DNA of 32,000 nucleotides from positions 819-32,818 of the forward strand of contig NZ_CP046222.1 of the NCBI RefSeq assembly GCF_012571795.1, written 5' to 3'. Numbering within the stretch: the first letter of the stretch is position 1; each line of letters starts with the position of its first letter. Source of the stretch: Candidatus Saccharimonadota bacterium (GTDB taxonomy: Bacteria; Pseudomonadota; Gammaproteobacteria; Enterobacterales; Enterobacteriaceae). Below are positions 1,404-4,331 of this stretch, in pieces. Both the position numbers and the translations under genes were made by a program. Below the pieces are notes generated by a model, which saw nothing but the letters and a program-made list of their open reading frames with translations, was not told where the DNA came from and searched no databases.

Positions 1404-4331
1404 TAAAATAAGCGTATACGATGGATGCCTTGGCAGTCAGAGGCGATGAAGGACGTGCTAATCTGCGAAAAGCGTCAATAAGTTGATTCGAAACGTTATT
1501 AATTGGCGATATCCTAATGGGGTAACCTAATGTATTTAATCATACATTATCGTTATTTGAATATATAGAATAACGAAGCAAACCAGGAGAACTGAAACAT
1601 CTAAGTATCCTGAGGAATAGAAATCAATAGAGATTTCCTTAGTAGTGGCGAGCGAAACGGAAACAGCCCAAAGATATTAGTTAATATTATTTTAATAGAA
1701 GTGTCTGGAAAGTCATACGATACAAGGTGATAGTCCTGTATATAAAAAAATAATATTAACATTCTTAAAGAGTAAAACGAGACACGTGAAATCTTGTTTG
1801 AAGATAGGGGGATCATCCTCTAAGGCTAAATACTACTGACTGACCGATAGTGAACTAGTACCGTGAGGGAAAGGTGAAAAGAACCCCGGTTAGGGGAGTG
1901 AAATAGAACCTGAAATCGTATACGTACAAGCAGTAGGAGCATTTTAATAATGTGACTGCGTACCTTTTGTATAATGGGTCAGCGAGTTATATTTTGTAGC
2001 AAGGTTAACTGTGTAAGGGAGCCGTAGGGAAACCGAGTTTTAATAGAGCGTTAAGTTGCAAGATATAGACCCGAAACCCGGTGATCTAGCCATGAGCAGG
2101 TTGAAGGTAAGGTAATACTTACTGGAGGACCGAACTGACTAATGTTGAAAAATTAGCGGATGACTTGTGGTTAGGGGTGAAAGGCCAATCAAACCGGGAG
2201 ATAGCTGGTTCTCCCCGAAAGCTATTTAGGTAGCGCCTCGTGTTATTCGTATTCGGGGGTAGAGCTCTGTTTCGGTTAGGGAGTCATCCAGACTTACCAA
2301 TCCGATGCAAACTTCAAATACCGAATATCGTTATCACGGGAGACACACAGCGGGTGCTAACGTTCGTTGTGGAAAGGGAAACAACCCAGATCGCTAGCTA
2401 AGGTCCCTAAGTTATAATTAAGTGGGAAACGATGTGGGAAGGCATAAACAGCCAGGATGTTGGCTTAGAAGCAGCCATCATTTAAAGAAAGCGTAATAGC
2501 TCACTGGTCTAGTCGTCCTGCGCGGAAGATATAACGGGGCTAAATTATACACCGAAGCTGCGACAATAAGTGTTATTACATTTATTGGGTAGGGGAGCGT
2601 TCTGTAAGTCGTTGAAGATAAATTGTAAAATTTATTGAAGATATCAGAAGTGCGAATGCTGACATGAGTAACGATAAAATAGGTGAAAAACCTATTCGCC
2701 GAAAGACTAAGGTTTCCTATCCAACGGTAATCGAGGTAGGGTTAGTCGACACCTAAGGTGAGGCTGAAAAGCGTAATCGATGGATAACAGGTTAATATTC
2801 CTGTACTTGGTATTATTATGAAGGGGGGACGAAGAAGGTTAGATTATCCAGGTGATGGTTGTCTTGGTTTAAACGTTTAGATGGATTATTTAGGCAAATC
2901 CGGATAATTATTAACATTGAGGCGTGATGACGAAATACTTTATTGTATTGAAGTAATTGATACCATACTTACAAGAAAATCCTCTAAGTATTTAAAATAA
3001 TATTAAATCGTACTATAAACCGACACAGGTGGTCAGGTAGAGAATACTAAGGCGTTTGAGAGAACTCAGGTGAAGGAACTAGGCAAAATAGTGCCGTAAC
3101 TTCGGGAGAAGGCACACTGATAGTAAGTGACAAAATTTACTTTTAGAGCTGAATTCAGTCTAAGATAACAGCTGGCTGCAACTGTTTATTAAAAACACAG
3201 CACTGTGCAAACACGTAAGTGGAAGTATACGGTGTGACGCCTGCCCGGTGCCGGAAGGTTAATTGATGAAGTTATCATTTTTTGAGAAGCTTTTGATCGA
3301 AGCCCCGGTAAACGGCGGCCGTCTACTTCAGCCCCAGGATGTGATGAGCCGACATCGAGGTGCCAAACACCGCCGTCGATATGAACTCTTGGGCGGTATT
3401 AGCCTGTTATCCCCGGAGTACCTTTTATCCGTTGAGCGATGGCCCTGTCATATAGAACCACCGGATCACTAAGACCTGCTTTCGCATCTGTTTGAACCGT
3501 CATTCTTACAGTTAAGCCAGCTTATGCCTTTGCACTAACCTCACGATTTCCGACCGTGATTAGCTGACCTTAAGTGCTCCTCCGTTACTCTTTGGGAGGA
3601 GACCGCCCCAGTCAAACTACCCACCAGACATTGTCTCTAACCCGGATTACGGGTTTAGGTTAGAATATTAAGTATTTAAGGGTGGTATTTCAAGGTTGAC
3701 TCCATACTAACTAGCGTTAATACTTCTATGTCTCCCACCTATCCTACACATAAATAATCAATATTCAATATCAAGCTATAGTAAAGGTTCACGGGGTCTT
3801 TCCGTCTTGCCGCGGGTACACTGCATCTTCACAGCAATTTCAATTTCACTGAGTCTCAGGTGGAGACAGTCTGGCCATCATTACGCCATTCGTGCAGGTC
3901 GGAACTTACCCGACAAGGAATTTCGCTACCTTAGGACCGTTATAGTTGTCCCAAGGGTATGGCTGTTCGCCATTTAAAGTGGTACGCGAGCTGGGTTTAG
4001 AACGTCGTGAGACAGTTCGGTCCCTATCTGCCGTGGGCGTTGGAAGATTGAAAGGATTTGCTCCTAGTACGAGAGGACCGGAGTGAACGCATCTCTGGTG
4101 TTCGGGTTGTCATGCCAATGGCATTGCCCGGTAGCTAAATGCGGAAAAGATAAGCGCTGAAAGCATATAAGCGCGAAACTTACCTTAAGATTATTCTTCC
4201 CAGGATATTTATTTATTTTATAGATATCCCTAAAGGGACGTTAAAGACTATGACGTTGATAGGCTGGGTGTGTAAGCATAGTAATATGTTGAGCTAACCA
4301 GTACTAATAAACACCCGTGAGTCTTAACCTT
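1397..4331 (+). rRNA. rrl: 23S ribosomal RNA gene (about 2935 nt) carrying an internal 625-bp inverted block
   Basis: The 5' end GGTTAAGT..GCGTATACGATGGATGCCTTGGCAGTCAGAGGCGATGAAGGACGTGC starts at 1397. The 3' end ..GAGCTAACCAGTACTAATAAACACCCGTGAGTCTTAACCTT finishes at 4331. The sarcin-ricin loop AGTACGAGAGGACCGG is in sense at about 4066-4081. The gene is colinear with enterobacterial 23S except for 3323-3947, which reads as antisense. Confidence 0.95.
3323..3947 (-). rRNA. Inverted internal segment of 23S rRNA (about E. coli 1912-2535: 3' half of H69, H70-71, and most of domain V including the PTC central loop and P-loop)
   Basis: The plus strand reads CTACTTCAGCCCCAGGATGTGATGAGCCGACATCGAGGTGCCAAACACCGCCGTCGATATGAACTCTTGGGCGGTAT... 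and ends ...GGAATTTCGCTACCTTAGGACCGTTATAGTT. These are exact reverse complements of conserved 23S sense sequence. Flipping the block restores ..CGGCGGCCGT|AACTATAACGGTCC.. and ..GGGGCTGAAGTAG|GTCCCAAGGG.. Confidence 0.9.

What the first reader, a model, noticed from the sequence alone, without database searches (positions are those of the whole stretch)
3323..3947. Exact 625-bp inversion inside the 23S rRNA gene, covering most of the peptidyl-transferase centre
The sense-strand 23S sequence runs uninterrupted up to ..GGTAAACGGCGGCCGT (ends at 3322, about E. coli U1911 in the loop of helix 69). The next base begins CTACTTCAGCCCCAGGATGTGATGAGCCGACATCGAGGTGCCAAACACCGCCGTCGATATGAACTCTTGGGCGGTAT. 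That is the reverse complement of the universally conserved ATACCGCCCAAGAGTTCATATCGACGGCGGTGTTTGGCACCTCGATGTCGGCTCATCACATCCTGGGGCTGAAGTAG (about E. coli 2460-2535). Antisense 23S continues to ..GGAATTTCGCTACCTTAGGACCGTTATAGTT (ends at 3947, the reverse complement of AACTATAACGGTCCTAAGGTAGCGAAATTCC, about E. coli 1912-1942). Sense resumes at 3948 with GTCCCAAGGGTATGGCTGTTCGCCATTTAAAG (about 2536 onward). Flipping the block restores a perfectly colinear 23S with no base gained or lost. I see no flanking inverted repeats, no IS remnant and no duplication at either junction. The block carries the 3' half of H69, H70-71, the L1-stalk and P-loop regions, and the 2058-2062, 2451 and 2503-2506 parts of the PTC, so a contiguous transcript could not fold into a functional LSU rRNA. 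The inverted block nevertheless shows no decay at conserved positions, and the 23S terminal processing stem (1381-1403 with 4323-4346), 5S and 16S are all intact. There are three readings. (i) It is an assembly or sequence-handling artefact, which is most likely. (ii) It is a very recent inversion, which would be lethal if this is the only rrn copy. (iii) It is a genuinely split LSU rRNA gene whose middle piece is transcribed from the other strand and assembled in trans. Reading (iii) is known only from some organelles and would be unprecedented for a bacterium. By my approximate E. coli numbering, both breakpoints fall at or near hairpin apices (the H69 loop and near the tip of H91), where chain breaks are structurally tolerable. 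That keeps (iii) from being dismissed, although no promoter or processing signal is visible at the junctions.
Basis: partly seen in the sequence, partly recalled or inferred. Interest (0 to 1): 0.85.

Follow-up and report, generated by a model that had tools for sequence, protein, structure and literature searches.

The report
Flipped 625-bp block in 23S gene
A 625-base piece of the large ribosomal RNA gene of a reed-beetle gut symbiont really is written backwards in this sequence. It is almost certainly a mistake from hand-finishing a short-read assembly, not a new kind of split ribosomal RNA gene.

Summary
Window 1397-3322 matches E. coli 23S 1-1911 (+), 3323-3947 matches 2535-1912 (-), and 3948-4331 matches 2536-2904 (+). 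Nothing is gained or lost, and there is no microhomology or flanking inverted repeat.

By its MurB protein, the window comes from the Enterobacteriaceae endosymbiont of the reed beetle Neohaemonia nigricornis. All six sister symbiont genomes I fetched are colinear across this segment. Neither junction sequence occurs in the species-representative genome or metagenome collections.

The genome paper says the rRNA operons (two per genome) collapsed in the short-read SPAdes assemblies. They were copied and stitched in by hand or with Geneious against a reference. Three of the six sister records have gross defects in the same operon: up to about 1 kb of 23S missing, a truncated 16S, and runs of N.

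The two breakpoints fall inside the only two stretches of this 23S that are at least 77 nt identical to E. coli, which is where a mixed-sample de Bruijn graph would break. The block shows no decay, has no spacer, and has no convincing promoter of its own.

Verdict: a finishing artefact (about 0.87). A real recent inversion in one of the two rrn copies is possible (about 0.08). A functional split 23S is very unlikely (about 0.01). Only reads or PCR can settle it.

The parts
1..1234 (+). 16S rRNA gene, cut by the window start (Rfam model positions 304-1533)
   Evidence: RF00177, 1276.9 bits
1235..1396 (+). 16S-23S spacer: continuous, AT-rich, no tRNA and no N. All six sister records have a run of 95-100 N here.
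1397..3322 (+). 23S rRNA, sense, E. coli positions 1-1911. Ends with the 5' strand of helix 69.
3323..3947 (-). The inverted block: 23S E. coli positions 1912-2535 encoded on the minus strand. It runs from the H69 loop through H70-H90 to the H91 loop and covers most of domains IV/V, including peptidyl-transferase centre residues.
   Evidence: 625 nt, 89.6% to E. coli, minus; 96.0% to L002, minus; 597.5 bits on the minus strand
3948..4331 (+). 23S rRNA, sense, E. coli positions 2536-2904
3293..3322 (+). Left part (30 nt) of conserved run 1 (107 nt identical to E. coli in the un-inverted gene). It ends at junction J1 (3322|3323).
3871..3947 (-). Right part (77 nt) of conserved run 1. The inversion has moved it to the far end of the block, where it abuts junction J2.
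   Evidence: coordinates converted from restored positions 1927-2003
3323..3399 (-). Left part (77 nt) of conserved run 2 (169 nt identical to E. coli). The inversion has moved it so that it abuts junction J1.
   Evidence: restored positions 2475-2551
3948..4039 (+). Right part (92 nt) of conserved run 2. It begins at junction J2 (3947|3948).
4398..4513 (+). 5S rRNA gene, intact
   Evidence: RF00001, 80.5 bits
4547..5572 (+). murB. It identifies the source organism: 100% identical to QJC30220.1 of the Enterobacteriaceae endosymbiont of Neohaemonia nigricornis. It was also used to fetch the same locus in sister genomes.

Best explanation
The inversion is a finishing artefact of the deposited genome, or of some later handling of the sequence. 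It is not a property of the symbiont's chromosome.

Shown: the source is the Neohaemonia nigricornis reed-beetle symbiont. Its genome came from about 5 million 150-nt Illumina read pairs of dissected beetle organs, assembled with SPAdes. Contigs were ordered and oriented by BLAST against the Macroplea mutica symbiont reference and merged in Geneious. The two rRNA operons collapsed into one and were copied in automatically or by hand.

Inferred: in such a mixed sample, the de Bruijn graph branches wherever the symbiont shares k-mers with any other bacterium. At k = 77 only two stretches of this 23S are long enough, and they hold the two breakpoints. The 625-nt piece between them therefore most likely existed as a separate fragment. 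It was then joined at reference coordinates without being reverse-complemented. Joining by coordinate would explain why the flip is exact to the base, with no repeat, no indel and no decay. The real gene is expected to be colinear, as in all relatives.
For: 1. Organism and method. MurB is 100% identical to the N. nigricornis symbiont protein on a 471,617-bp contig. The paper PMC7289800 states that the rRNA operons were 'the only major challenge' and are present in two copies. [quoted passage not shown] Other fragments were merged by aligning their ends to the reference.

2. The same operon is visibly defective in sister records from the same study. The L006 23S lacks about 726 nt and the L007 23S about 985 nt at the 5' end, each next to a run of 95-100 N. 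The L005 16S lacks about 290 nt and its operon has three N runs. All six sister records have an N run in the spacer.

3. All six relatives are colinear across E. coli 1912-2535. The intact 23S genes score 2756-2790 bits, against 1917.6 bits here.

4. Only two runs of at least 77 nt identical to E. coli exist in this 23S (107 and 169 nt), and each holds one breakpoint. The chance of one breakpoint falling in each is about 0.4%.

5. The flip is base-exact, with zero microhomology and no flanking repeats.

6. The block shows no decay. Window-specific changes at otherwise invariant positions are 2/525 in the block, against 7/1487 and 2/308 in the flanks.

7. As far as the sister loci reach (about 16 kb), the rest of the window is perfectly colinear with them. 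The paper reports perfect synteny across 26 genomes.

8. Neither junction sequence is found in 185,579 species-representative genomes or in 241 million metagenome records.
Against: - There is no read-level evidence. I could not reach the source record, its second rrn copy or the raw reads.
- The contig boundaries of the original assembly are unknown, so the fragment-joined-backwards step is inference.
- Contigs that overlap normally orient themselves, so the error requires joining by coordinate rather than by overlap.
- Unlike its sisters, this operon has no N run and looks otherwise clean. If it came out of SPAdes as one contig, reads would support the junctions.
- Both breakpoints lie at hairpin-loop edges (H69, H91). 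My rough count from the consensus structure line puts the chance of that at about 2-4%. A structure-blind artefact does not predict it.
- The value k = 77 for 150-nt reads is the SPAdes default as I recall it. The paper does not state it.
Confidence: 0.87

Rival explanations
1. A real, very recent inversion in one of the two rrn operons. That copy is dead, the other supplies 23S rRNA, and the short-read assembly collapsed both copies and happened to keep the inverted path.
For: - The genome has two rrn operons, so loss of one 23S copy need not be lethal.
- A copy-specific inversion would itself break the assembly graph exactly at the two breakpoints and leave the block as a separate contig.
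- The lack of decay fits a very recent event, or homogenisation by gene conversion with the intact copy.
- This operon has no N filler.
Against: - No inverted repeat, microhomology, indel or mobile element exists at the junctions to mediate an inversion.
- These genomes are reported as perfectly syntenic across 26 species. The flanking 16 kb is colinear with relatives.
- A mutational process gives no reason for both breakpoints to fall in the two longest conserved runs.
- Reference-guided curation would be expected to choose the colinear path if both paths were present.
- The six relatives show nothing similar.
Confidence: 0.08
2. The window was altered after deposition, for example by a slice being reverse-complemented during data handling. 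On this reading the GenBank record itself is colinear.
For: - Base-exact reversal of a slice with no other change is what a computational operation produces.
- I could not view the source record to compare.
- The junction-spanning ORFs are not in the protein collection, though that is uninformative.
Against: - A slice at random coordinates would have only about a 0.4% chance of placing one end in each of the two conserved runs even if it fell inside the 23S. The 23S is only about 9% of the window.
- The known manual assembly of this very operon offers a sufficient cause.
Confidence: 0.04
3. A genuinely split 23S rRNA gene. Pieces 1-1911 and 2536-2904 come from the rrn transcript, the middle piece 1912-2535 is transcribed from the opposite strand, and the three RNAs assemble in trans into a working large subunit.
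For: - Both breakpoints lie at the edges of hairpin loops (H69 and H91), where chain breaks are sterically easiest.
- The block is under the same apparent constraint as the rest of the gene.
- Scrambled and fragmented rRNA genes do work in some mitochondria (papers listed, e.g. PMC8660880, PMC3382252).
- Circularly permuted 23S can be viable in E. coli (abstract of PMC11472049).
Against: - No nucleotide of spacer exists to hold a promoter, terminator or processing site. Promoter-like sites are at chance level, and the nearest one on the minus strand (4244->4215, 9 of 12) lies inside the 3' domain of the 23S gene.
- The breaks lie in the two most conserved stretches of the molecule. One is in the H69 loop, a functional core element. 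Natural rRNA discontinuities lie in variable regions (general knowledge).
- The arrangement is absent from six close relatives, including Macroplea, the nearest by MurB identity. The same junctions are absent from all public collections searched.
- The abundant rrn primary transcript would contain a perfect 625-nt antisense of the needed piece (inference).
- The record comes from a hand-stitched operon.
Confidence: 0.01

Closest known systems
Misjoined or misoriented contig in a hand-finished short-read assembly of a repeated rRNA operon
   Same: - The region is documented as collapsed and manually rebuilt.
- The breakpoints lie inside the k-mer-length conserved stretches.
- The flip is base-exact with no repeat signature.
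- Relatives are colinear.
- Sister records show other defects in the same operon.
   Different: - The usual defects in this data set are missing segments and N filler, not an inversion.
- This operon has no N.
- The original contig ends are not known.
Scrambled or fragmented organellar rRNA genes (Chlamydomonas, Polytomella and Plasmodium mitochondria), whose pieces are transcribed separately and assembled in trans
   Same: A piece of LSU rRNA is encoded out of order or on the other strand relative to the rest. The ends of the piece lie in hairpin loops.
   Different: - Organellar pieces are separated by other genes or spacers, and they are processed.
- Their arrangement is conserved within the lineage.
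- Their breaks tend to lie in variable regions.
- Here there is no spacer and no expression signal.
- Here the breaks are in the most conserved stretches.
- Here there is no conservation of the arrangement in relatives.
Bacterial 23S fragmentation by intervening sequences (IVS in helices 25 and 45 of Salmonella, Leptospira and others, excised by RNase III)
   Same: A bacterial 23S rRNA that would not exist as one continuous functional chain.
   Different: IVS cases are insertions of extra sequence on the same strand in variable helices. Here nothing is inserted, the strand is switched, and the sites are H69 and H91.
Programmed DNA inversions (invertible promoter or shufflon switches) and inversions mediated by IS elements or inverted repeats
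   Same: A DNA segment in the opposite orientation, with sharp ends.
   Different: These need flanking inverted repeats and a recombinase or long homologous repeats. No repeats were found. The named neighbouring genes are housekeeping genes: murB, aroQ, mreBC, rsmI, folD, metB and gltX.

Membership tests
Bacterial LSU rRNA gene (Rfam RF02541), intact and colinear | One colinear full-length match on one strand, with a score comparable to relatives | tested here: not met
   As written, the window scores 1917.6 bits, with nested minus-strand hits. Four intact relatives score 2756-2790 bits. BLAST gives three HSPs: plus, minus, plus.
Bacterial LSU rRNA gene (Rfam RF02541), intact and colinear | Becomes colinear, with no gap, when 3323-3947 is reverse-complemented | tested here: met
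   The restored gene aligns with L002-L005 and E. coli with no gap at either junction.
Assembly or finishing artefact | The region is a known assembly problem that was rebuilt manually | tested here: met
   Methods of PMC7289800: the two rRNA operons collapsed, were copied, and were assembled automatically or manually against a reference.
Assembly or finishing artefact | Breakpoints coincide with repeat-like (shared k-mer) sequence where contigs end | tested here: met
   The only two runs of at least 77 nt identical to E. coli (107 and 169 nt) each contain one breakpoint. The actual contig ends are unknown.
Assembly or finishing artefact | Comparable defects in other records made by the same procedure | tested here: met
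   The L006 and L007 23S genes lack about 726 and 985 nt. The L005 16S is truncated. All six relatives carry N runs.
Assembly or finishing artefact | Raw reads do not support the junctions | not testable with these tools
Split or scrambled rRNA gene with trans-assembled pieces | Each piece has its own expression or processing signals (spacer, promoter, processing stems) | tested here: not met
   There is zero spacer at both junctions. Promoter-like sites number 32, against 21.8 +/- 5.0 expected, and almost all lie in the AT-rich protein-coding part. None lies adjacent to the block on the minus strand.
Split or scrambled rRNA gene with trans-assembled pieces | Discontinuities at structurally tolerant, usually variable, sites | tested here: inconclusive
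   Both breaks are at hairpin-loop edges. However, they lie inside the two most conserved stretches of the gene, one of them the H69 loop.
Split or scrambled rRNA gene with trans-assembled pieces | The arrangement is shared by related lineages | tested here: not met
   Six sister symbionts are colinear over this segment. The junctions are absent from the genome and metagenome collections.
Split or scrambled rRNA gene with trans-assembled pieces | Discrete RNA pieces are present in ribosomes | not testable with these tools
   This needs strand-specific RNA-seq or a Northern blot.
Repeat- or recombinase-mediated DNA inversion | Inverted repeats or microhomology at the two ends | tested here: not met
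   No inverted repeat pairs the two junctions. The end bases are not complementary.
Repeat- or recombinase-mediated DNA inversion | A recombinase or mobile element nearby | tested here: not met
   The eight neighbouring genes scanned (4.5-14 kb) are housekeeping genes. The locus is colinear with relatives.
IVS-type fragmented bacterial 23S | Extra intervening sequence inserted in helix 25 or 45 | tested here: not met
   The restored gene is 2935 nt, against 2936 nt in L002. No insertion shows at those sites in the single colinear alignment.

The most novel reading that the evidence does not exclude
The symbiont really carries this arrangement and makes a three-piece 23S rRNA. The middle piece (E. 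coli 1912-2535, most of the peptidyl-transferase centre) would be transcribed from the opposite strand and assembled in trans. This would be the first scrambled rRNA gene in a bacterium, with breaks in the H69 and H91 loops.
Probability: 0.01. Interest if true: 0.95.

Novelty: not a real feature. Interest (0 to 1): 0.1.

Why it matters
It would also bear on how far rRNA gene order can drift during endosymbiont-to-organelle evolution.

As it stands, its value is practical. It flags a probable error in a public "complete" genome record. It also shows that the rRNA operons of this 26-genome reed-beetle symbiont data set include hand-built drafts: every one of the seven I examined shows an inversion, a missing segment or N filler. 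They should not be used uncritically for rRNA phylogeny, probe design, structure work or annotation benchmarks.

Tried and rejected
- **Retrieving the source record or independent assemblies of it.** Exact look-ups of the window's MurB, MreB and P0001 returned "not on record". A species-specific 23S 32-mer had no hit in genome contigs. I therefore could not inspect the deposited record, its second rrn copy, or any read-derived contigs.
- **Searching for the same junctions elsewhere.** A degenerate J1 pattern found nothing in genome contigs or metagenome contigs, and the exact J2 pattern found nothing in metagenome contigs.
- **Proving that the GenBank record carries the junction.** I looked up the junction-spanning ORFs (3263-3472 and 3807-3977) in the protein collection. 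They are not there, which is uninformative.
- **Repeat-mediated inversion and template switching.** Rejected: there is no inverted repeat and no microhomology.
- **Pseudogene decay of the block.** Rejected: there is no excess of lineage-specific changes.
- **A foreign or chimeric origin of the block.** Rejected: it is 96% identical to the Macroplea symbiont, in line with the flanks.
- **A minus-strand promoter for the block.** Nothing beyond chance.
- **Experimental tolerance of breaks in H69 or H91.** I looked in the circular-permutation paper PMC11472049 and found no mention of either helix.
- **Double-strand breaks by homing endonucleases.** I considered this because LSU intron sites cluster in the same conserved regions (from memory). 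I dropped it because no such element is present and an exact religation would be unexplained.
- **The starts of the truncated 23S genes in L006 and L007.** These (about nt 727 and 986) do not fall inside long conserved runs. The k-mer argument therefore does not explain every defect in the data set.
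Full report
**1. The observation**

The window carries an rrn operon:
- 16S, cut by the window start, at 1-1234
- 23S at 1397-4331
- 5S at 4398-4513

The full-length plus-strand 23S hit scores only 1917.6 bits, and minus-strand LSU hits are nested inside it. On 3200-4100 alone, the minus strand matches LSU model positions 1859-2565 at 597.5 bits.

| Window | E. coli 23S | Strand | Identity |
|---|---|---|---|
| 1397-3322 | 1-1911 | plus | 83.3% |
| 3323-3947 | 2535-1912 | minus | 89.6% (625 nt) |
| 3948-4331 | 2536-2904 | plus | 83.9% |

Further checks on the junctions:
- The breakpoints are unambiguous. Neither the bases just outside the block nor those just inside it are complementary, so there is zero microhomology.
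- No inverted or direct repeat links the two junctions.
- When the block is flipped, the gene aligns with five other 23S sequences with no gap at either junction.

In the Rfam consensus structure, J1 lies between the 5' strand of helix 69 and its first loop base. J2 lies at the loop-proximal end of the 3' strand of helix 91.

**2. Where the sequence comes from**

The flanking DNA is about 20% G+C. The neighbouring genes are murB, aroQ, mreB, mreC, rsmI, RNase P RNA, folD, metB and gltX. MurB is 100% identical to QJC30220.1 of the "Enterobacteriaceae endosymbiont of Neohaemonia nigricornis", on a 471,617-bp contig. This is one of 26 reed-beetle (Donaciinae) symbiont genomes published by Reis et al. 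2020 (PMC7289800), whose Table 1 lists a chromosome of exactly that size.

**3. Relatives**

In these genomes murB lies directly after 5S, so I fetched the same locus from six sister symbionts:
- L002: Macroplea appendiculata
- L003: Donacia tomentosa
- L004: Plateumaris sericea
- L005: D. clavipes
- L006: P. rustica
- L007: D. fulgens

L002-L005 each have one colinear 23S of 2756-2790 bits and no minus-strand LSU hit. L006 and L007 are also colinear across the segment in question. Against L002, L003 and L004 the window shows the same plus/minus/plus pattern with the same breakpoints. As far as the loci reach (about 16 kb), the rest of the window is colinear with them.

A degenerate pattern for J1 found nothing in the 185,579 species-representative genomes or in the 241 million metagenome records. 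The exact J2 sequence found nothing in the metagenome records. In everything I could search, the arrangement is unique to this one sequence.

**4. State of the block**

After un-inverting, I counted window-specific changes at positions invariant in the five other sequences:

| Region | Window-specific changes | Rate |
|---|---|---|
| Left flank | 7 of 1487 | 0.47% |
| Inverted block | 2 of 525 | 0.38% |
| Right flank | 2 of 308 | 0.65% |

These rates are no higher than those of the sister genomes. The block has not decayed. It is 96.0% identical to the Macroplea symbiont, against 94.2% for the left flank, so it is native and not foreign. The inversion is therefore either functional, extremely recent, or not real.

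**5. How the record was made**

The paper's methods are explicit:
- About 5 million 150-nt Illumina read pairs were obtained per sample from dissected symbiotic organs and assembled with SPAdes 3.12.
[quoted passage not shown] Where necessary, fragment ends were aligned to the reference, and gaps were filled with N.
- The rRNA operons were "the only major challenge". There are two copies per genome, and short reads collapsed them into one operon. [quoted passage not shown]

The segment in question therefore lies in the one part of the genome that was built by hand.

**6. Defects in sister records**

The same operon is visibly damaged in the sister records:
- All six have a run of 95-100 N in the 16S-23S spacer.
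- In L006 the 23S starts at about nt 727, directly after the N run.
- In L007 the 23S starts at about nt 986, directly after the N run.
- In L005 the 16S lacks about 290 nt at its 5' end, and the operon has three N runs.

By the paper's procedure, the same operon sequence sits at both rrn sites in these records. Taken literally, these records would then describe organisms with no intact 23S or 16S gene. Three of six relatives thus carry gross rrn artefacts, which sets a high prior for a fourth kind of defect here.

**7. Position of the breakpoints**

Only two stretches of this 23S are identical to E. coli over at least 77 nt. In restored coordinates they are 1897-2003 (107 nt) and 2475-2643 (169 nt). 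J1 (1926|1927) lies in the first and J2 (2551|2552) lies in the second. The chance that two random positions in the gene fall one in each run is about 0.4%.

From my knowledge of the program, 77 is the largest default k of SPAdes for 150-nt reads. The paper does not state the k values used. At that k, these two stretches are the only places where symbiont reads would share graph nodes with an E. coli-like bacterium in the sample. The graph would therefore branch there and contigs would end there.

This gives the artefact hypothesis a specific, non-arbitrary account of why these two positions were hit. A fragment bounded by the two runs, joined at reference coordinates without being reverse-complemented, yields exactly what is seen: a base-exact flip with nothing gained or lost. 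That last step is inference, because I have neither the contigs nor the reads.

**8. The exciting reading**

A trans-assembled split 23S has one point in its favour: both breaks are at hairpin-loop edges. My rough count of loop positions in the consensus structure line puts about 15% of sites in or at a hairpin loop. That gives about 2% for both breaks, or about 4% given the conserved runs.

Against it:
- There is not one nucleotide of spacer.
- There is no promoter-like site beyond chance. The nearest minus-strand candidate is a 9-of-12 match about 270 nt away, inside the 23S 3' domain.
- The breaks lie in the most conserved parts of the molecule, including the H69 loop. From general knowledge, natural rRNA discontinuities lie in variable regions.
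- The arrangement is absent from the closest relatives.
- The abundant rrn transcript would carry a perfect 625-nt antisense of the needed piece (inference).

Organellar scrambled rRNAs and viable circular permutations of E. coli 23S show that order is not sacred. Nothing here resembles their gene organisation.

**9. Other rivals**

A real recent inversion in one of the two operons cannot be excluded without reads. It would not be lethal, and it would itself split the assembly graph at the breakpoints. However:
- There is no repeat or microhomology to make it.
- These genomes are otherwise perfectly syntenic.
- A mutational event has no reason to hit both conserved runs.

Alteration of the window after deposition would also give an exact flip, but it would not explain the breakpoint positions.

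**10. Verdict**

| Reading | Probability |
|---|---|
| Finishing artefact | about 0.87 |
| Real inversion in one rrn copy | about 0.08 |
| Later sequence handling | about 0.04 |
| Functional split 23S | about 0.01 |

The decisive test is trivial for anyone with the data: map the reads of PRJNA587602 across both junctions, inspect the second rrn copy of the record, or run an orientation-specific PCR.

Noticed in passing
L006 2230-2324 and 2325 onward (CP046228.1); L007 2224-2323 and 2324 onward (CP046182.1): In the deposited Plateumaris rustica and Donacia fulgens symbiont genomes, the 23S gene at this locus lacks its first 726 and 985 nt or so. It starts directly after a run of 95-100 N. Taken literally, these would be non-functional 23S genes, so they are most likely assembly defects.
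   Followed up: partly
L005 654-752, 2050-2145, 5374-5471 (CP046208.1): The Donacia clavipes symbiont operon has three N runs. Its 16S lacks about 290 nt at the 5' end (Rfam SSU only 1059 bits, from model position 114).
   Followed up: partly
L002 2223-2317, L003 2216-2311, L004 2217-2313; window 1235-1396: All six sister records have a run of 95-100 N in the 16S-23S spacer. The window's spacer is continuous, AT-rich and has no tRNA. [quoted passage not shown]
   Followed up: partly
window 8223-8310: Only 86 nt separate mreC (7399-8223) from the DsrC/TusE-like ORF (8310-8594, minus strand). mreD is present at this position in L003 and L007 (160 aa, PF04093) and appears to be lost here. The Plateumaris symbionts (L004, L006) carry a pmbA/tldD gene in this interval instead.
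   Followed up: no
window 11130-12296 (-); L002 about 12307-13367; L005 12763-13687: metB (cystathionine gamma-synthase) is intact in the window. No gene is called in the corresponding interval of the Macroplea appendiculata symbiont. In the Donacia clavipes symbiont it is broken into three short ORFs, which suggests lineage-specific loss of methionine synthesis.
   Followed up: no
window 3263-3472 (+) and 3807-3977 (+): The inversion creates two spurious ORFs (69 and 56 aa) that read across junctions J1 and J2. Neither is in the public protein collection.
   Followed up: yes
window 9695-10063 (+): An intact class A RNase P RNA (267 bits) lies between rsmI and folD, at the same position as in all six relatives.
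   Followed up: no
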